Sequence record: MZ956761.1
DNA length: 64,000 nt
Direction: 5' to 3' (one strand)
Origin: a phage
Shown: one piece after another, positions 142 through 17,511 of the stretch
Layout: every line of letters starts with the position of its first letter
Position numbering within the stretch: the stretch's first letter is position 1
Notes under the pieces: model-generated
Seen by the model: only the letters and a program-made list of their open reading frames with translations
The model's database searches: none
Told to the model about the DNA's origin: nothing
Program-made: the position numbers and the translations under genes

Positions 142-238
142 NTTTCAAAATTTTTTNANAAAANANTTTNNATANNACAAGGACNGTGGTNCTATNNAAC
201 NATNGGCNANANTGCTGATNATTAAANAGGAAAACAAN

Positions 239-466
239 ANGGCTAAAGTTNATATTGACATCGTNGATNNTGAATATATTNAAGAAATNATTCGTAATCG
301 TTATCCTNAACTTAGTATCACAAGCGTACAAGATTCTAAGTTTTGGAGTATTCAAATTGTTATTGAAGGTCCTCTTGAAGACCTCACTCGCTTTATGGCT
401 AATGAATATTGTGATGGCATGGATTCTGAAGACGCAGAATTTTACATGGGACTGATTGAACAATAA
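239..466 (+). CDS. Hypothetical small acidic protein; N-terminus lies in N-masked sequence
   Basis: Frame 2 open from a possible aNg(ATG?) at 239 preceded by AGGAAA, clean translation ...[50 protein letters not shown] ending TAA 464-466; the ORF-track calls here (255..455 with TTG start, 125..463 minus) look like artefacts. Confidence 0.4.
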
Positions 467-1475: not shown

Positions 1476-2302
<827 letters not shown>

Positions 2303-2321: not shown

Positions 2322-2669
2322 ATGAATTTTAATTATTACCCTATTCTATTAGAAAAAGACGCGAAACAACCAAAATGGCAGGGTCCTCAGTTTATTAAAG
2401 GTGTCTATCAATTAGTAGTTCCTAAAGACAAAATTTATAGTAGTTGTTTCACTGAATCCGCTTGCAGTATTTTTGGTAATAGTTCTCCATATTGGAATTT
2501 TGATATAAAGCTTGACAGAAATATCGATATTTGGTTGAAAGCTATGGATATTGGCAATATCACGTTTGATGAGAATAATTATCATATTATTGGTCGCTTT
2601 TCCAAGCGTGGTAAAGAATTATATTTTACGCCTGAAATTGAAAGAAAATTTGATGCTAAACCGTATTGA
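2322..2669 (+). CDS. Hypothetical protein (115 aa) inserted between frd and td
   Basis: Intact ORF with ATG; no recognisable motif; frd and td overlap directly in T4 as I recall. Confidence 0.6.
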   Translation: MNFNYYPILLEKDAKQPKWQGPQFIKGVYQLVVPKDKIYSSCFTESACSIFGNSSPYWNFDIKLDRNIDIWLKAMDIGNITFDENNYHIIGRFSKRGKELYFTPEIERKFDAKPY

Positions 2670-2713
2670 TTATTAGCTTCATAAAATGTATTATAATTTA
2701 TATAAGGTACTAA

Positions 2714-3574
2714 ATGAAACAATACCAAGATTTAATTAAAGACATTTTTGAAAACGGCTATGAAACCGATGACCGAACAGGCACAGGAACAATTGCTTTG
2801 TTCGGTACTAAATTACGCTGGGATTTAACTAAAGGTTTTCCTGCAGTAACGACTAAGAAGCTCGCCTGGAATGCATGTATTTCTGAATTATTGTGGTTCT
2901 TATCAGGAAGTACTAACGTAAATGATTTACGTCAACGTACTCATGGATCTTTAATTGCAGGAAAAACAATTTGGGATGAAAACTACGAAAATCAGGCCAA
3001 AGACTTAGGTTATCATAGCGGTGAACTTGGTCCAATTTACGGAAAACAGTGGCGTGATTTTGGTGGTGTAGATCAAATTGTAGAAGTTGTTAATCGTATT
3101 AAAACATTTCCCAATGATAGACGTCAAATTGTGTCGGCATGGAATCCAGCTGAACTCAAGCAGATGGCATTACCTCCTTGTCATATGTTCTATCAGTTTA
3201 ATGTGCGTAACGGATACCTTGACCTCCAATGGTATCAACGTTCGGTAGATGTTTTCCTCGGTCTTCCATTTAACATCGCGAGTTATGCTGCTCTTTTACA
3301 TATTGTTGCTGACATGTGTGAACTAGTTCCGGGCGATTTGGTATTCTCGGGTGGTAATACACACATTTATTCTAACCATATTGAGCAATGCAAAGAGATA
3401 TTAAATAGAACTCCTATGGATCTATGCAAACTCAGTATTAATTGGCCTAATGGATTCAGTCAATGCGATACTGAAACTCAAATGTATTGGTTAACTGAAT
3501 ATATGACAGCACGGGATTTCGTTCTCAAAGATTATCAGTCCCACGGTGTTTTGAAAGGAAAGATGGCGGTGTAA
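2714..3574 (+). CDS. td: Thymidylate synthase, uninterrupted (no group I intron)
   Basis: 286 aa continuous ORF, MKQYQDLIKDIFENGYETDDRTGTGT...PPCH..; same length as spliced T4 Td. Confidence 0.95.
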   Translation: MKQYQDLIKDIFENGYETDDRTGTGTIALFGTKLRWDLTKGFPAVTTKKLAWNACISELLWFLSGSTNVNDLRQRTHGSLIAGKTIWDENYENQAKDLGYHSGELGPIYGKQWRDFGGVDQIVEVVNRIKTFPNDRRQIVSAWNPAELKQMALPPCHMFYQFNVRNGYLDLQWYQRSVDVFLGLPFNIASYAALLHIVADMCELVPGDLVFSGGNTHIYSNHIEQCKEILNRTPMDLCKLSINWPNGFSQCDTETQMYWLTEYMTARDFVLKDYQSHGVLKGKMAV

Positions 3575-3597
3575 TTTTAATTTAATTGAGAGGATAT

Positions 3598-3861
3598 ATG
3601 ATTTTACGATTTAAGGATACTTCTGGTGTCGTTCTTTTTACACTTCCTAATCCAAGCGAGTTAGAAGTTCCAGGACCAGAACAGCCTATTATCATTTATG
3701 GTAAAAAGTATTATACTCATAAAATGACTCGTGAGTATTTTGATAATAAAATTTCCACAGTTAAAACTTCTTCTGATTGTTATTATGATATTACTGTTTT
3801 AACGGAACAACAATATGACGAATTATTACCGCGCGGGCCGTCTATGCCGGGTAGTGAATAA
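3598..3861 (+). CDS. Hypothetical protein (about 87 aa)
   Basis: ATG at 3598 preceded by GAGAGGA; the track ORF begins at an upstream TTG. Confidence 0.5.
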
Positions 3862-4141
3862 ATATAAATCCGACTTTGATGTTAATATTCACCGCGGTAC
3901 ATTTTGGGGAAATTACGTCGGTAAAGATGCTGGCAGCCGGGAGGCTGCCATTGAATTATTCAAAAAAGATTTTATACGTCGAATTAAATCCGGAGAAATA
4001 ACTAAAGCACATTTAGAGCCTTTACGTGGAATGAGGCTAGGATGCACATGTAAACCAAAGCCGTGTCATGGTGATATAATAGCTCATATAGTTAACCGAT
4101 TGTTTAAAGACGATTTTCAAGTTGAGGACTTATGCAATTAA
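3815..4141 (+). CDS. Small conserved protein with Cys/His cluster (DUF4326-like motif [13 protein letters not shown])
   Basis: 108 aa; IHRG..WGN..CxCxPxPCHGD pattern resembles a phage-associated domain of unknown function (recalled, not searched). Confidence 0.55.
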
Positions 4142-6396
4142 TTAATGTTATCAAAAGTAGTGGTGTTTCTCAGAGCTTTGACCCGCAAAAAATTATTAAA
4201 GTTTTATCTTGGGCAGCTGAAGGAACATCTGTAGATCCTTATGAATTATATGAAAATATTAAATCATATCTCCGTGATGGAATGACAACTGATGACATTC
4301 AGACTATTGTCATTAAGGCTGCTGCGAATTCTATTTCAGTTGAAGAGCCTGATTACCAATATGTAGCTGCACGCTGTTTAATGTTCGCTCTTCGTAAACA
4401 TGTTTACGGGCAGTATGAACCACGTTCATTTATTGACCATATTTCTTACTGTGTAAATGAAGGTAAATATGACCCTGAACTGTTGTCAAAATATTCTGCC
4501 GAAGAAATTACATTTTTAGAATCAAAAATTAAGCATGAGCGGGATATGGAATTTACTTATTCCGGGGCGATGCAATTAAAAGAAAAATATCTAGTTAAAG
4601 ATAAAACCACTGGTCAAATTTATGAAACTCCACAGTTTGCATTTATGACTATTGGAATGGCATTGCATCAAGATGAACCTGTTGATAGATTAAAACACGT
4701 TATCCGTTTTTATGAAGCAGTATCTACTCGACAGATTTCACTGCCAACTCCTATTATGGCTGGTTGCCGTACTCCAACTCGGCAGTTTAGTTCATGCGTT
4801 GTTATTGAAGCAGGTGATTCATTAAAGTCTATCAATAAGGCTTCTGCTTCAATTGTTGAATATATCTCCAAACGCGCTGGAATTGGTATTAACGTTGGTA
4901 TGATTCGTGCCGAAGGTTCTAAGATTGGCACAGGTGAAGTACGCCATACTGGTGTTATTCCTTTTTGGAAACATTTTCAGACTGCAGTTAAATCATGCTC
5001 ACAGGGTGGAATTCGTGGCGGCGCTGCTACTGCTTATTATCCTATTTGGCATTTGGAAGTTGAAAATCTTCTCGTTTTGAAAAATAACAAAGGCGTAGAA
5101 GAAAACCGTATCCGTCATATGGATTATGGCGTTCAACTGAATGACCTAATGATGGAACGATTCGGAAAGAATGATTACATTACTTTGTTCAGTCCGCATG
5201 AAATGGGTGGCGAACTTTATTATTCTTATTTTAAAGACCAAGACCGTTTCCGTGAATTATACGAAGCCGCAGAAAAAGACCCTAATATTCGTAAAAAGCG
5301 TATTAAAGCCCGTGAACTGTTTGAATTGCTCATGACTGAACGCTCAGGAACAGCAAGGATTTATGTACAGTTCATAGATAATACGAATAACTATACTCCG
5401 TTTATTCGTGAAAAGGCACCTATTCGTCAGAGCAACTTGTGCTGTGAAATTGCTATTCCAACAAATGATGTTAATAGCCCTGATGCCGAAATTGGATTGT
5501 GTACGTTATCTGCATTTGTGTTAGATAACTTCGATTGGCAAGACCAAGATAAAATTAATGAATTGGCAGAAGTCCAAGTTCGTGCTCTTGATAATCTTTT
5601 GGACTACCAAGGATATCCAGTTCCTGAAGCAGAAAAAGCTAAAAAGCGTCGAAATCTTGGTGTAGGTGTTACTAACTATGCAGCTTGGCTGGCAAGTAAT
5701 TTTGCTTCTTATGAAGATGCTAACGATTTAACACATGAACTATTTGAGAGATTGCAGTATGGACTCATTAAAGCATCCATTAAGCTCGCCAAAGAAAAAG
5801 GACCTTGCGAATATTATTCAGACACTCGTTGGTCTCGAGGCGAATTACCTATCGACTGGTACAATAAAAAGATTGACCAAATCGCAGCTCCAAAATACGT
5901 TTGTGACTGGTCGTCGCTGCGGGAAGACCTTAAGCTCTTTGGCATCCGTAATAGCACATTATCAGCACTTATGCCATGTGAGTCATCTTCCCAAGTTTCT
6001 AACAGTACAAACGGTATCGAGCCTCCACGTGGACCAGTCTCTGTTAAAGAATCAAAAGAGGGTTCCTTTAATCAAGTCGTGCCCAATATTGAGCATAACA
6101 TAGACCTCTATGATTATACGTGGAAATTAGCTAAGAAAGGTAATAAACCTTATCTTACGCAAGTAGCTATTATGTTGAAATGGGTATGTCAATCAGCTTC
6201 AGCGAATACATATTATGACCCGCAGATTTTTCCAAAAGGAAAGGTTCCAATGTCAATAATGATTGATGACCTTTTATATTTTTGGTATTTTGGCGGAAAA
6301 AATTTCTATTATCATAATACACGCGACGGTTCTGGTACTGATGATTATGAAATAGAAACTCCAAAAGCTGAAGATTGTTCATCCTGTAAATTATGA
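4132..6396 (+). CDS. nrdA: Ribonucleotide reductase large subunit (aerobic class I)
   Basis: 754 aa; ATP-cone N-terminus and catalytic-core motifs; length as T4 NrdA. Confidence 0.95.
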   Translation: MQLINVIKSSGVSQSFDPQKIIKVLSWAAEGTSVDPYELYENIKSYLRDGMTTDDIQTIVIKAAANSISVEEPDYQYVAARCLMFALRKHVYGQYEPRSFIDHISYCVNEGKYDPELLSKYSAEEITFLESKIKHERDMEFTYSGAMQLKEKYLVKDKTTGQIYETPQFAFMTIGMALHQDEPVDRLKHVIRFYEAVSTRQISLPTPIMAGCRTPTRQFSSCVVIEAGDSLKSINKASASIVEYISKRAGIGINVGMIRAEGSKIGTGEVRHTGVIPFWKHFQTAVKSCSQGGIRGGAATAYYPIWHLEVENLLVLKNNKGVEENRIRHMDYGVQLNDLMMERFGKNDYITLFSPHEMGGELYYSYFKDQDRFRELYEAAEKDPNIRKKRIKARELFELLMTERSGTARIYVQFIDNTNNYTPFIREKAPIRQSNLCCEIAIPTNDVNSPDAEIGLCTLSAFVLDNFDWQDQDKINELAEVQVRALDNLLDYQGYPVPEAEKAKKRRNLGVGVTNYAAWLASNFASYEDANDLTHELFERLQYGLIKASIKLAKEKGPCEYYSDTRWSRGELPIDWYNKKIDQIAAPKYVCDWSSLREDLKLFGIRNSTLSALMPCESSSQVSNSTNGIEPPRGPVSVKESKEGSFNQVVPNIEHNIDLYDYTWKLAKKGNKPYLTQVAIMLKWVCQSASANTYYDPQIFPKGKVPMSIMIDDLLYFWYFGGKNFYYHNTRDGSGTDDYEIETPKAEDCSSCKL

Positions 6397-6447
6397 TATA
6401 ATTTGACTCACGGACGAGTCACTATCTATTAACTAAGCGGAAAATTT

Positions 6448-7617
6448 ATGAGCACAGTTTTTAATACAAATCCAGTTGATGTTTTAAAAGAACCTATGTT
6501 CTTCGGTTCAGGTCTTGGTATTGCGCGTTATGATATTCAACGCCATAAAGTTTTTGAAGATTTAACCGAAAAGCAATTATCATTTTTCTGGCGTCCTGAA
6601 GAAGTAAACTTGATGATGGATGCTGCACAATTTAACAAGCTTCCTCAGTATCAACAAGATATTTTTACTAATAACCTGAAGTATCAATCACTTTTGGATA
6701 GCATTCAGGGTCGTGCACCGTCTGCTGTACTTATGTCATTAATTTCAGATCCAAGCCTTGATACATGGGTTGCTACATGGACTTTTAGTGAAACTATTCA
6801 CAGTCGTTCATATACTCATATCATGCGAAATCTTTATACTGATCCGTCAAAGGTGTTTGATGAGATTGTATTAGATAAAGCTATTATGAAACGTGCCGAG
6901 TCCATTGGTCGCTATTACGATGATGTTCTAGTTAAGACTCGTGAATACCAGAACGCGGTTGAAGATTATGAAGGAATTTTATCAGAAGGATTTCGTAAAG
7001 AAGAGCTAGGCAAAGTTGTTGAATGTACTAAACGAGCACTAATGAAATCTCTTTACCTCTGCCTGCACGTAATCAACGCCTTGGAAGCTATTCGTTTTTA
7101 TGTATCTTTCGCATGTACCTTTAACTTCCATAAAAACATGGAAATCATGGAAGGTAATGCCAAGATTATGAAGTTCATTGCACGTGATGAGCAGCTTCAC
7201 CTTAAAGGCACCCAATATATTATTCGTCAACTTCAACTTGGCACTGATGGTGATGAATGGGTTAAAATTGCCCAAGAGTGTGAACAAGAAGCAGTTGATA
7301 TTTTCATGGAAGTTAACCGTCAAGAAAAAGATTGGGCAGTTCATTTATTTAAAGATGGCGATGTTCCTGGATTAAATACAAATAGCATGTGGAGCTTTAT
7401 TGATTACTTAACTGTATCTCGTATGAAACAGTGCGGTCTTCCATGCCCAATTACCGATGCTCCGGTTAAACATCCGTATCCTTGGATTCGTGAATATCTT
7501 AATTCTGATAATGTTCAATCCGCGCCGCAAGAAGTAGAACTGTCATCTTATCTTGTAGCACAGATTGATAATGATGTTGATGATAAAGTTATGATGAGTT
7601 TTAAAAAATATTTTTAA
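6448..7617 (+). CDS. nrdB: Ribonucleotide reductase small subunit, uninterrupted (no intron)
   Basis: 389 aa continuous ORF; T4 nrdB carries a group I intron, absent here. Confidence 0.95.
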   Translation: MSTVFNTNPVDVLKEPMFFGSGLGIARYDIQRHKVFEDLTEKQLSFFWRPEEVNLMMDAAQFNKLPQYQQDIFTNNLKYQSLLDSIQGRAPSAVLMSLISDPSLDTWVATWTFSETIHSRSYTHIMRNLYTDPSKVFDEIVLDKAIMKRAESIGRYYDDVLVKTREYQNAVEDYEGILSEGFRKEELGKVVECTKRALMKSLYLCLHVINALEAIRFYVSFACTFNFHKNMEIMEGNAKIMKFIARDEQLHLKGTQYIIRQLQLGTDGDEWVKIAQECEQEAVDIFMEVNRQEKDWAVHLFKDGDVPGLNTNSMWSFIDYLTVSRMKQCGLPCPITDAPVKHPYPWIREYLNSDNVQSAPQEVELSSYLVAQIDNDVDDKVMMSFKKYF

Positions 7618-16857: not shown

Positions 16858-17060
16858 ATATAATTAATAAGATTTTTGGAATTCAGTACATTAAGGTCAC
16901 ATATAAAGTAACAGATAAAAATCCGTATACTGATGAACACGAAGAACCGAAAGTTGAGTCTATTATATTAGAAAAGGACCCTAACTGGCCAGTTGAATTT
17001 CGTCTTCCTTGCTATGGTCATTGGGCTGATGTTGAAATTATAAGCATTGAAAATGTCTGA
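16854..17060 (+). CDS. 30.4: Hypothetical protein (68 aa)
   Basis: ATG ORF; symbol by synteny. Confidence 0.5.
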   Translation: MNIINKIFGIQYIKVTYKVTDKNPYTDEHEEPKVESIILEKDPNWPVEFRLPCYGHWADVEIISIENV

Positions 17061-17511
17061 GATAGAGATTAGAAGTAATTTTAGATGGCCATCATGCGCA
17101 TTAAGTAATTTCGCCCATTGGCCTTTCGTTATGGATGGTATTCAATTTGGAGGTCTCGAAGGATTCCTCCAAGGGTGCAAGGTGAAAAATGTTGAACAAC
17201 AACGTCGTATATTTGGGTTATCCGGGCTTGCCGCCCAACAAGCTGGAAGGTCTTATGCAAGAGCTCAGGACCGCGGGACCCTCTTCTGGCTTGGAGTTCC
17301 GTTTTCAAGATACTCCCCGGCGTGGAAAGAATTATACACAAATGCATATTTTGAAGCAGCGATCCAAAACAAGGGCTTTCGTGATGCATTACAAGCCTCA
17401 AAAGGAAAAGTTTTGAAGCACAGCATGGCTAGTGGTCTAACAAAAGATGATACAATACTAACCGAAGCTGAATTTATTGATGTGTTAAACCTATTAAGAG
17501 ACTCTCTATGA
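17053..17511 (+). CDS. 30.3: NADAR-domain protein (YbiA-like; candidate ADP-ribose N-glycosidase)
   Basis: About 152 aa from ATG 17053; LSNFAHWPFVMDGIQF..EGFLQGCK pattern resembles the NADAR/DUF1768 family (recalled). Confidence 0.65.
   Translation: MSEIEIRSNFRWPSCALSNFAHWPFVMDGIQFGGLEGFLQGCKVKNVEQQRRIFGLSGLAAQQAGRSYARAQDRGTLFWLGVPFSRYSPAWKELYTNAYFEAAIQNKGFRDALQASKGKVLKHSMASGLTKDDTILTEAEFIDVLNLLRDSL

What the first reader, a model, noticed from the sequence alone, without database searches (positions are those of the whole stretch)
3815..4141. Small protein with invariant CxCxPxPCHGD motif between td and nrdA
The 108-aa ORF contains HRG..WGN and [15 protein letters not shown], which I associate with a domain of unknown function (DUF4326-like) common in phages and often found near nucleotide-modifying or defence-related genes. 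The Cys/His cluster suggests metal binding or catalysis. It overlaps the end of the preceding ORF by 47 nt.
Basis: partly seen in the sequence, partly recalled or inferred. Interest (0 to 1): 0.45.

Follow-up and report, generated by a model that had tools for sequence, protein, structure and literature searches.

The report
T4 nrdA.1: a stand-alone DUF4326 protein
The ORF is real and is the phage T4 gene nrdA.1, a small cysteine-rich protein of the widespread family DUF4326, whose function has never been tested; it is a known gene, not a new discovery.

Summary
ORF 3815..4141 (+, 108 aa) lies between td and nrdA, overlaps the upstream ORF by 47 nt and carries HRGTFWGN and [15 protein letters not shown]. 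The window is a Tequatrovirus. The ORF is the orthologue of T4 nrdA.1 (97% aa identity, same position) and matches Pfam DUF4326 end to end (E=5.5e-22).

The family is large: 10,493 clusters at 50% identity, and 1,946 of 50,697 phage records. C77, C79, C84 and N33 are invariant in 100 diverse members; P81 and H85 are 99%. P83 is not conserved, so the true motif is G-C-x-C-x-P-x-x-C-H-G-D.

An AlphaFold model (pLDDT 91.7) gives a small alpha/beta domain with C77 at the end of a strand, then a loop and a helix. It matches no solved structure.

Elsewhere the domain is fused to SLOG, NADAR, Macro and TIR domains. In bacteria it sits in a DuOB-DUF488-(mSLOG-DUF4326) operon. The same window encodes gp30.3/AdfN, a proven NADAR anti-DarTG1 enzyme.

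My best reading, which is inferred, is a cysteine-dependent enzyme acting on phosphoribosyl or ADP-ribose-derived nucleotides. This agrees with published predictions from the Aravind group. Linkage to ribonucleotide reductase is mostly T4-like synteny. The gene is already known and of modest interest.

The parts
3815..4141 (+). nrdA.1 orthologue, 108 aa, a stand-alone DUF4326 domain
   Evidence: ORF list. Pfam PF14216 E=5.5e-22. PHROG 464 E=1.2e-48. Annotated nrdA.1 in phage ime09 and 'DUF4326 domain-containing protein' in T4 at the same position. AlphaFold model pLDDT 91.7.
4040..4075 (+). Signature G76-C77-T-C79-K-P81-K-P-C84-H85-G86-D87: end of strand b3, loop, start of helix a3. Putative active or metal site.
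   Evidence: C77, C79 and C84 are 100%, P81 and H85 99%, G76 and G86 94%, D87 93% in 100 diverse members. The DNA pattern of this motif is specific for the family.
3893..3913 (+). R27-G-T-F-W-G32-N33 loop motif (family consensus G-R-G-S-x-W-G-N-P-F)
   Evidence: R27 98%, G32 94%, N33 100%. The T4 clade deviates at H26 (Gly in 77%) and Y34 (Pro in 85%).
3586..3861 (+). nrdA.2 (DUF5496), the upstream gene. Its last 47 nt (3815-3861) are read in a second frame as the start of nrdA.1.
   Evidence: Pfam PF17600 E=7.6e-60, full length. Annotated nrdA.2 in ime09.
4132..6396 (+). nrdA, RNR large subunit. Its ATG overlaps the nrdA.1 stop by 10 nt, which suggests translational coupling (inferred).
   Evidence: Pfam Ribonuc_red_lgC E=3e-135; sequence read. 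No terminator-like site, and promoter-like sites at chance level, in 2600-4400.
2714..3574 (+). td, thymidylate synthase (intronless here), the upstream context
   Evidence: Pfam Thymidylat_synt E=3e-95.
17047..17511 (+). gp30.3/AdfN, a NADAR enzyme. It is a candidate pathway partner because NADAR and DUF4326 are fused in other organisms (inference only).
   Evidence: Pfam Phage_30_3 E=7.7e-70. BLASTP E=3e-6 to the NADAR domain of the NADAR-DUF4326 fusion P0221. Anti-DarTG1 DNA ADP-ribosylglycohydrolase activity is shown in bioRxiv 10.1101/2024.07.11.602962 and PMC11125620.

Best explanation
Shown: the ORF is the orthologue of phage T4 nrdA.1 and consists of one stand-alone DUF4326 domain. No terminator-like site lies between td and nrdA, so it is probably co-transcribed with td, nrdA.2 and nrdA (inferred). 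The model is a small alpha/beta domain: b1 12-15, a1 42-59, a2 64-70, b3 74-77, loop 78-84, a3 85-96. The invariant C77 ends strand b3, and C79, P81, C84 and H85 line the following loop and the helix N-terminus. Inferred: this strand-Cys-loop-helix arrangement, together with the other near-invariant polar residues (N15, D22, R27, N33, R42, D87), is an active site. I take the protein to be a cysteine-dependent enzyme that acts on the phosphorylated ribose of a nucleotide or an NAD+/ADP-ribose-derived product, for example by removing or transferring a terminal phosphate. This is the prediction of Iyer, Burroughs and Aravind, who place DUF4326 in the rhodanese-phosphatase superfamily. In T4-type phages it would act in trans with other ADP-ribose enzymes of the same genome, such as the NADAR enzyme AdfN/gp30.3, either to clean up nucleotide by-products or to blunt NAD-based host immunity. 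The identity of the gene and family is essentially certain. The biochemical activity is an inference; no substrate has been tested.
For: Identity: Pfam DUF4326 E=5.5e-22; 97% aa identity and the same position as T4 nrdA.1. Conservation pattern typical of an active site across 100 diverse members and across 49 multidomain members. Confident model placing C77 at a strand end followed by a loop and a helix. Domain fusions: among 49 long representatives, SLOG families (YAcAr 7, mSLOG 6, DprA-like 5, YpsA 1), NADAR 4, Macro 2 and TIR 1. 29 of 120 bacterial/archaeal copies are mSLOG-DUF4326 fusions, and 4-5 of 19 long viral copies carry SLOG domains. All of these partners bind or cleave phosphoribosyl/ADP-ribosyl compounds. 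There is a conserved bacterial operon DuOB-DUF488-(mSLOG-DUF4326) in at least 25 of 120 loci. DUF488 shares the C...P-x-x-C-H motif and aligns to DUF4326 by hhalign (E=0.0029, 56 columns, C77/P81/C84/H85 matched). The window itself encodes the NADAR enzyme gp30.3/AdfN, which is experimentally an anti-DarTG1 DNA ADP-ribosylglycohydrolase. Published predictions: PMC7824862 and PMC9503650.
Against: Foldseek found no solved structure with E<=0.001 (best E=2.4), so similarity to rhodanese, PTP or RapZ-C folds was not reproduced here. Sequence and profile searches of the PDB found nothing. The loop lacks the C-x5-R phosphate-binding signature of phosphatases. Three invariant Cys plus a His within 9 residues looks equally like a Zn site. 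The hhalign probability against DUF488 is only 10.6%. In viral contigs about 85% of copies are stand-alone, with no fixed neighbour, so the fusion logic reaches T4 only indirectly. The T4 clade departs from the family consensus at two well-conserved positions (H26, Y34). AdfN alone is reported necessary and sufficient against DarTG1, so no role for NrdA.1 in that defence is indicated. Truncated copies occur in some T4-like phages (P0046, P0072; BFVD entries of 57-59 aa), so the gene is probably dispensable.
Confidence: 0.4

Rival explanations
1. Non-catalytic zinc module. C77, C79, C84 and H85 bind a structural Zn2+, and the domain is a small nucleic-acid-, nucleotide- or protein-binding adaptor rather than an enzyme.
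For: Three invariant Cys plus a 99% conserved His lie within nine residues. The protein is small (108 aa). Some relatives are fused to, or neighbour, DNA-handling proteins: Pol A, RNase H, RNA polymerase, SSB, ParB and the dual-OB protein. The sister family DUF488 also has a three-Cys-plus-His pattern, C-x2-C-x7-C-H.
Against: Several other polar residues far from the Cys cluster in sequence are almost invariant (N15, D22, R27, N33, R42, D87), which is more typical of a substrate pocket. Adjacent Cys-His rarely both bind one metal ion (general structural knowledge). Pfam distinguishes 'active' and 'inactive' DUF488 subclades, which implies that the curators read the Cys as catalytic.
Confidence: 0.2
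2. Thiol redox or sulfur-transfer enzyme. The CxC...C cluster runs a persulfide or disulfide relay, as in rhodaneses or ArsC-type arsenate reductases, for a nucleic-acid or nucleotide modification.
For: Three invariant cysteines sit in a strand-loop-helix site. The Aravind group assign the family to the rhodanese-phosphatase superfamily (PMC9503650). The bacterial operon with a dual-OB protein and DUF488 points to a nucleic-acid substrate.
Against: There is no Foldseek similarity to rhodaneses. No sulfur-mobilising partners (cysteine desulfurase, ThiI or Dnd/Ssp-like proteins) appeared among the recurrent neighbour clusters that were scanned (the 10 largest of each sample). The fusion partners point to ribose/ADP-ribose chemistry instead.
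Confidence: 0.15
3. Ribonucleotide-reductase accessory. NrdA.1 serves T4 NrdAB directly, for example as a reductant, assembly or regulatory factor. This would explain its position and its translational coupling to nrdA.
For: The stop codon overlaps the nrdA ATG. The gene lies next to nrdA or nrdB in Tequatrovirus, Slopekvirus and Acinetobacter T4-like phages. In the unrelated Lahexavirus LAh_6 it follows nrdB-nrdA-HNH-dam-thioredoxin-like. A CxC motif could be redox-active.
Against: Only 4 of 120 IMG/VR loci have NrdA within four genes. In KVP40, Ackermannviridae, Thalassavirus, Otagovirus, Vequintavirus-like and Bacillus phages it is not near RNR genes. No RNR gene appeared among the recurrent neighbour clusters in the cellular sample, whose largest clusters were DuOB, DUF488 and SLOG. 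There is no Pfam similarity to thioredoxin, glutaredoxin or NrdI. The 'NrdA-like' labels trace to the gene name only.
Confidence: 0.1

Closest known systems
Phage T4 NrdA.1 (hypothetical protein between nrdA.2 and nrdA)
   Same: 97% amino-acid identity, the same length (108 aa), the same neighbours and the same overlaps. It is the same gene in a close relative; the DNA is 100% identical to Escherichia phage ADUt over 3400-4400.
   Different: Nothing of substance in the gene itself. The surrounding td and nrdB genes lack the T4 introns, and mobE is absent.
Pfam DUF4326 (PF14216) / PHROG 464
   Same: Full-length profile match, the full signature, and a predicted fold matching other DUF4326 models from phages, archaeal viruses and giant viruses (TM 0.6-0.86).
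   Different: The T4 clade has His for Gly at position 26 and Tyr-Val for Pro-Phe/Tyr at 34-35, plus a 10-residue N-terminal extension. It is stand-alone, whereas a minority of the family is fused to SLOG, NADAR or Macro.
DUF488 (PF04343), the proposed sister family
   Same: It shares a strand-Cys ... Pro-x-x-Cys-His-helix motif and aligns over 56 columns by hhalign (E=0.0029). It is encoded next to mSLOG-DUF4326 in a conserved bacterial operon.
   Different: DUF488 is larger (about 145 aa), with a different N-terminal half and C-x2-C instead of C-x-C. The similarity is weak (probability 10.6%). It also has no solved structure and no tested function.
Cys-based phosphatases and rhodaneses (rhodanese-phosphatase superfamily)
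   Same: A nucleophile-type Cys at the C-terminal end of a beta-strand, followed by a loop and a helix N-terminus. Published superfamily assignment (PMC9503650).
   Different: No C-x5-R loop, only three short strands in the model, and no Foldseek hit to any solved member. No activity is known.
AdfN / gp30.3 (phage NADAR, anti-DarTG1)
   Same: It is encoded in the same window (17047..17511). NADAR is fused to DUF4326 in other genomes. It belongs to the same NAD/ADP-ribose theme.
   Different: It has an unrelated fold and a demonstrated activity and phenotype. NrdA.1 has neither, and AdfN works against DarTG1 without any reported need for NrdA.1.

Membership tests
Pfam DUF4326 (PF14216) | Profile HMM score above the curated gathering threshold, over the whole domain | tested here: met
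   78.7 bits against a cut-off of 25, E=5.5e-22, residues 11-90 on profile positions 1-81 of 82.
Pfam DUF4326 (PF14216) | Signature residues R-G...G-N and G-C-x-C-x-P-x-x-C-H-G-D | tested here: met
   All are present in the window protein. They are 93-100% conserved in 100 diverse members.
Pfam DUF4326 (PF14216) | Same predicted fold as other family members | tested here: met
   Foldseek against BFVD gave 17 hits with E<=0.001, nearly all labelled DUF4326 or unnamed (two carry other labels), TMq 0.60-0.86 except one 57-aa fragment (0.38). The query model has pLDDT 91.7.
T4 nrdA.1 orthologue group | High identity to T4 NrdA.1 and the conserved position nrdA.2 - nrdA.1 - nrdA | tested here: met
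   97.2% aa identity to T4 (H35), with identical gene order and overlaps in ime09 and T4.
Rhodanese-phosphatase superfamily (RapZ-C/DUF488/DUF4326 clade; the clade name is recalled from Burroughs & Aravind 2023, which could not be read here) | Conserved Cys at the end of a core beta-strand, followed by an active-site loop and a helix | tested here: met
   DSSP of the model gives strand 74-77 ending at C77, loop 78-84 and helix 85-96. No coordinates were available to inspect the geometry.
Rhodanese-phosphatase superfamily | Detectable structural similarity to solved rhodanese, PTP or RapZ-C domains | tested here: not met
   Foldseek against the PDB gave no match with E<=0.001; the best was E=2.4, TM 0.21, and none of the listed hits was a rhodanese or phosphatase.
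Rhodanese-phosphatase superfamily | C-x5-R (phosphatase) or C-x4/5-[RT] (rhodanese) anion-binding loop | tested here: not met
   The sequence reads C77-T-C79-K-P-K-P-C84-H85. There is no Arg at +6 from either Cys; His is at +6 from C79.
Rhodanese-phosphatase superfamily | Profile-level homology to the sister family DUF488 | tested here: inconclusive
   hhalign of A3 against A5 gave E=0.0029, probability 10.6% and 56 columns. The motif residues line up, but the DUF488 alignment was narrow (18 sequences).
Rhodanese-phosphatase superfamily | Phosphatase, phosphotransferase or sulfurtransferase activity | not testable with these tools
   This needs biochemistry. No paper reporting an assay was found.
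Structural Zn (Cys3His) module | Four invariant ligand-type residues in the right geometry | tested here: inconclusive
   The conservation criterion is met (C77, C79, C84 100%; H85 99%). The geometry could not be measured because model coordinates are not exposed.
RNR accessory proteins (thioredoxin/glutaredoxin/NrdH/NrdI) | Sequence membership in those families, or conserved RNR linkage across unrelated phages | tested here: not met
   The only Pfam hit is DUF4326. NrdA lies within four genes in only 4 of 120 viral loci. The gene is absent from the RNR neighbourhood in six other phage lineages.
Catalogued defence-system proteins (PADLOC) / NCBIfam named families | Profile match | tested here: not met
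   No hit with E<=1 in PADLOC-DB or NCBIfam.

The most novel reading that the evidence does not exclude
NrdA.1 is a previously unrecognised cysteine-dependent enzyme of T4 that destroys or recycles a phosphoribosyl/ADP-ribose-derived molecule. Candidates are a product of AdfN/NADAR, Alt/Mod ADP-ribosyltransferases, SLOG-type nucleotide cleavage, or a host NAD-derived immune signal or toxin. That would make it an unassigned counter-defence or nucleotide-salvage activity in the best-studied phage, and the first activity for a family of more than 10,000 protein clusters.
Probability: 0.25. Interest if true: 0.65.

Novelty: already known. Interest (0 to 1): 0.3.

Why it matters
The gene and its family are already catalogued: T4 nrdA.1, Pfam DUF4326 and PHROG 464. 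A functional prediction has been published, so the finding adds no new entity. Its value is as a tractable open question. A 108-aa domain with near-invariant catalytic-looking residues is present in about 4% of sequenced phages and in bacteria, archaea and giant viruses. It is repeatedly fused to enzymes of NAD/ADP-ribose chemistry, yet it has no tested activity and no solved structure. T4 offers a single-domain version, easy genetics and a proven NADAR partner candidate (AdfN) in the same genome. It is therefore a good system in which to assign the family's function.

Tried and rejected
- Single-sequence AlphaFold failed (pLDDT 46.6). The run with a 100-sequence alignment succeeded.
- Foldseek against the PDB gave nothing significant.
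- phmmer and hmmsearch against PDB sequences gave only chance hits, for DUF4326 and for DUF488.
- NCBIfam and PADLOC gave no hits.
- The look-up of encoding contigs on two representatives returned only 1-3 kb contigs of little use.
I used a degenerate DNA motif scan instead.
- Burroughs & Aravind 2023 (NAR Genom Bioinform lqad029, PMC10034599) and the T4 genome review (PMC150520) are not held. The 'RapZ-C/DUF488/DUF4326 clade' wording therefore rests on my memory of the abstract.
- A literature search for mSLOG/DuOB/PF14216 was swamped by unrelated words. 'nrdA.2' gave no papers, and 'nrdA.1' appears only in annotation tables.
- I rejected a chance ORF, because of the profile hit and the conservation.
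- I rejected a later start codon, because no in-frame ATG, GTG or TTG lies before the conserved strand.
- I rejected 'NrdA-like reductase', because that PHROG/Pharokka label is a name-propagation artefact.

Full report
**1. Observation**

The ORF 3815..4141 on the + strand (108 aa, ATG start) is present as described. The sequence read contains H26-R-G-T-F-W-G-N33 and L75[14 protein letters not shown]89.

The preceding ORF 3586..3861 ends 47 nt after the ATG at 3815, so the stated overlap is exact. The nrdA.1 stop codon also overlaps the start of the next gene (ATGCAATTAA at 4132-4141). The flanking genes are thymidylate synthase (2714..3574) and the large subunit of class Ia ribonucleotide reductase (4132..6396). 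Dihydrofolate reductase lies upstream; NrdB, a GIY-YIG endonuclease (DenA) and RNA ligase 1 lie downstream.

No in-frame start codon lies between 3815 and the conserved C11-R-V-V-N strand. The long overlap with the upstream gene is therefore forced by the sequence and is not an annotation choice.

**2. What it is**

The region 3400-4400 is 100% identical to Escherichia phage ADUt and 96-99% identical to about 500 Tequatrovirus genomes. In phage ime09 the ORF is annotated nrdA.1 and the upstream ORF nrdA.2. In a T4 record it is labelled 'DUF4326 domain-containing protein' and is 97.2% identical in protein sequence.

- Pfam gives DUF4326 (PF14216) at E=5.5e-22 and 78.7 bits against a cut-off of 25, covering profile positions 1-81 of 82.
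- The upstream ORF is DUF5496.
- PHROGs gives family 464, 'unknown function', at E=1.2e-48.
- NCBIfam, PADLOC and PDB sequence searches return nothing.

**3. Size and conservation of the family**

- tblastn finds the protein in 1,946 of 50,697 phage records. These include T4-like, Vi01-like and rV5-like phages, KVP40, jumbo phages, T5-like Vibrio phages and Bacillus phages.
- A profile search of 1.84 billion representatives finds 10,493 clusters with E<=0.001.
- In an alignment of 100 diverse, mostly stand-alone members, N33, C77, C79 and C84 are invariant. P81 and H85 are 99%. V14, D22 and R27 are 98% and N15 is 96%. G32, G76 and G86 are 94%, and D87 is 93%.
- The T4 clade is atypical at H26 (Gly in 77%) and at Y34-V35 (Pro-Phe/Tyr elsewhere).
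- A 36-nt degenerate DNA pattern encoding the motif hit only true family members. All 120 bacterial/archaeal and all 121 IMG/VR matches are ORFs that the family HMM recognises.

**4. Structure**

Single-sequence AlphaFold failed. With the 100-sequence alignment the model is confident (pLDDT 91.7, pTM 0.83). Its elements are strand 12-15, a short strand 23-24, a long loop carrying R27 and G32-N33, helices 42-59 and 64-70, strand 74-77, loop 78-84 and helix 85-96.

C77 therefore ends a beta-strand. C79 and P81 lie in the following loop, and C84-H85 start the next helix. Cys-based phosphatases and rhodaneses use this arrangement.

Foldseek found no solved structure with E<=0.001. In the viral model library it found essentially only other DUF4326 proteins, from phages, haloarchaeal viruses, pandoraviruses, pithoviruses and marseilleviruses.

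**5. Context and domain partners**

In T4-like phages the gene sits next to nrdA or nrdB. In the unrelated Aeromonas phage LAh_6 it follows nrdB-nrdA-HNH-dam-thioredoxin-like. It is elsewhere in KVP40, Ackermannviridae, Thalassavirus, Otagovirus, rV5-like phages and a Bacillus phage.

In 120 IMG/VR loci the median length is 105 aa. No neighbour family occurs in more than 5 loci. Those that recur are RNase H, thymidylate synthase, RNA ligase 1, NrdA, NrdB, a DNA methylase and primase-helicase. Phage copies are thus mostly stand-alone genes in replication/nucleotide-metabolism modules.

The multidomain members are more informative:

- Of 49 long representatives, the co-occurring Pfam families are SLOG (YAcAr 7, mSLOG 6, DprA-like 5, YpsA 1), NADAR 4, Macro 2 and TIR 1, plus single cases of Pol A, RNase H and RNA polymerase.
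- In bacterial and archaeal genomes, 29 of 120 copies are mSLOG-DUF4326 fusions. Four to five of 19 long viral copies also carry SLOG domains.
- Neighbour clustering shows that the bacterial fusions lie in a conserved three-gene unit, DuOB (dual-OB) - DUF488 - (mSLOG-DUF4326), in at least 25 loci.
- A second recurring module pairs a 124-aa DUF4326 with a 317-aa YAcAr-SLOG protein, a NikA-like protein and SSB or ParB. This module looks like a mobile element.
- DUF488 shares a C...P-x-x-C-H motif. It aligns with DUF4326 by hhalign at E=0.0029 over 56 columns, with C77, P81, C84 and H85 matched. The probability is only 10.6%.

**6. A partner candidate in the same window**

I searched the window's ORFs with the non-DUF4326 parts of the fusion proteins. 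This gave one hit, ORF 17047..17511. It is T4 gp30.3 (Pfam Phage_30_3, E=7.7e-70). It matches the NADAR domain of a NADAR-DUF4326 fusion with BLASTP E=3e-6 through the NADAR 'SNF...E..FQ..K' signature.

gp30.3 has been renamed AdfN. It is experimentally a DNA ADP-ribosylglycohydrolase that is necessary and sufficient to overcome the DarTG1 defence in T-even phages (bioRxiv 10.1101/2024.07.11.602962; PMC11125620). The phage thus carries, as separate genes, two domains that are fused elsewhere. This is suggestive only. The AdfN work gives no sign that NrdA.1 is needed against DarTG1.

**7. Literature**

DUF4326 appears in eight held papers, and none has experiments on it.

- Iyer et al. [quoted passage not shown] They predict an enzyme.
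- Iyer et al. [quoted passage not shown]
- A 2025 preprint notes amoeba-virus homologues of the anti-Avs SLOG-like protein ORF83 that carry a C-terminal DUF4326.
- The detailed 2023 paper by Burroughs and Aravind is not held.
- nrdA.1 is mentioned only in annotation tables.

My fusion and operon counts reproduce the published contextual claims independently. My fold search does not reproduce the superfamily assignment.

**8. Mechanism**

Shown:
- The gene and family identity.
- The conservation pattern.
- The strand-Cys-loop-helix placement in a confident model.
- The recurrent fusions to domains that bind or cleave phosphoribosyl/ADP-ribosyl compounds.
- No terminator-like site between td and nrdA.

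Inferred: NrdA.1 is a cysteine-dependent enzyme acting on the phosphorylated ribose of a nucleotide or ADP-ribose-derived product, working in trans with enzymes such as AdfN. I give this about 0.4.

Rivals:
- A structural Cys3His zinc module with a binding role (0.2).
- A thiol or persulfide relay enzyme (0.15).
- A direct RNR accessory (0.1). This is weakened by the lack of RNR linkage outside T4-like synteny and by the absence of any thioredoxin-like signature.

**9. Verdict**

The feature is an already known, uncharacterised T4 gene with a published computational prediction, so its novelty is 'already known'. Interest is modest (0.3). The family is large, enzyme-like, untested and linked to NAD/ADP-ribose conflict systems, and T4 is a convenient place to test it.

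Noticed in passing
window 17047..17511 (+): The 154-aa ORF is T4 gp30.3/AdfN, a NADAR enzyme shown experimentally to reverse DarT1 DNA ADP-ribosylation. It matches the NADAR half of a NADAR-DUF4326 fusion protein (BLASTP E=3e-6). The phage therefore encodes both fusion partners as separate genes.
   Followed up: partly
window 143..310: Scattered ambiguous bases (N) lie just downstream of the gene 32 end, in the frd.3 region. They give X residues in the ORF translations there. This is probably a sequencing or assembly quality issue.
   Followed up: no
window 2714..3574, 6396..6448 and 6448..7617: td and nrdB are uninterrupted here (no group I introns, no I-TevI/I-TevIII). No mobE lies between nrdA and nrdB, unlike the T4 record fetched.
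   Followed up: partly
window 2322..2669 (+) and 1476..1721 (+): Small ORFs lie between frd and td (115 aa, PHROG 1928, no Pfam hit) and just before frd (81 aa). They are annotated as hypothetical in ime09 and have no counterpart annotated in the T4 record examined.
   Followed up: no
L007 3881..4267 (Escherichia phage VivaForever) and PHROG 24867: A 128-aa protein is labelled 'NrdA-like ribonucleotide reductase'. It matches the C-terminal half of NrdA.1/DUF4326, and the PHROG carries the same label. This looks like a name-propagation artefact from the gene name nrdA.1, not a reductase.
   Followed up: partly
L019, L026, L028, L044, L048, L056, L065, L071, L079, L094, L099, L109, L111, L129 and others (bacterial genomes): There is a conserved three-gene unit: a dual-OB protein (PF22557), DUF488 (PF04343, 'active N3' subclade) and an mSLOG-DUF4326 fusion of about 200 aa. 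It occurs in at least 25 of 120 sampled loci across Gammaproteobacteria and other phyla. No experimental study of it was found.
   Followed up: partly
L060, L062, L064, L080, L082, L087 (all from MAG chromosome OZ241875.1): One genome carries at least six copies of a module comprising DUF4326 (124 aa), a 317-aa YAcAr-SLOG protein and a NikA-like protein, with SSB nearby in some copies. This looks like a multi-copy mobile or conjugative element.
   Followed up: no
P0046, P0072; H33; BFVD A0A7D5FR63 and A0A1B1IXX6: Some T4-like phages carry truncated or frameshifted nrdA.1 copies (57-87 aa). This suggests the gene is dispensable under some conditions.
   Followed up: no
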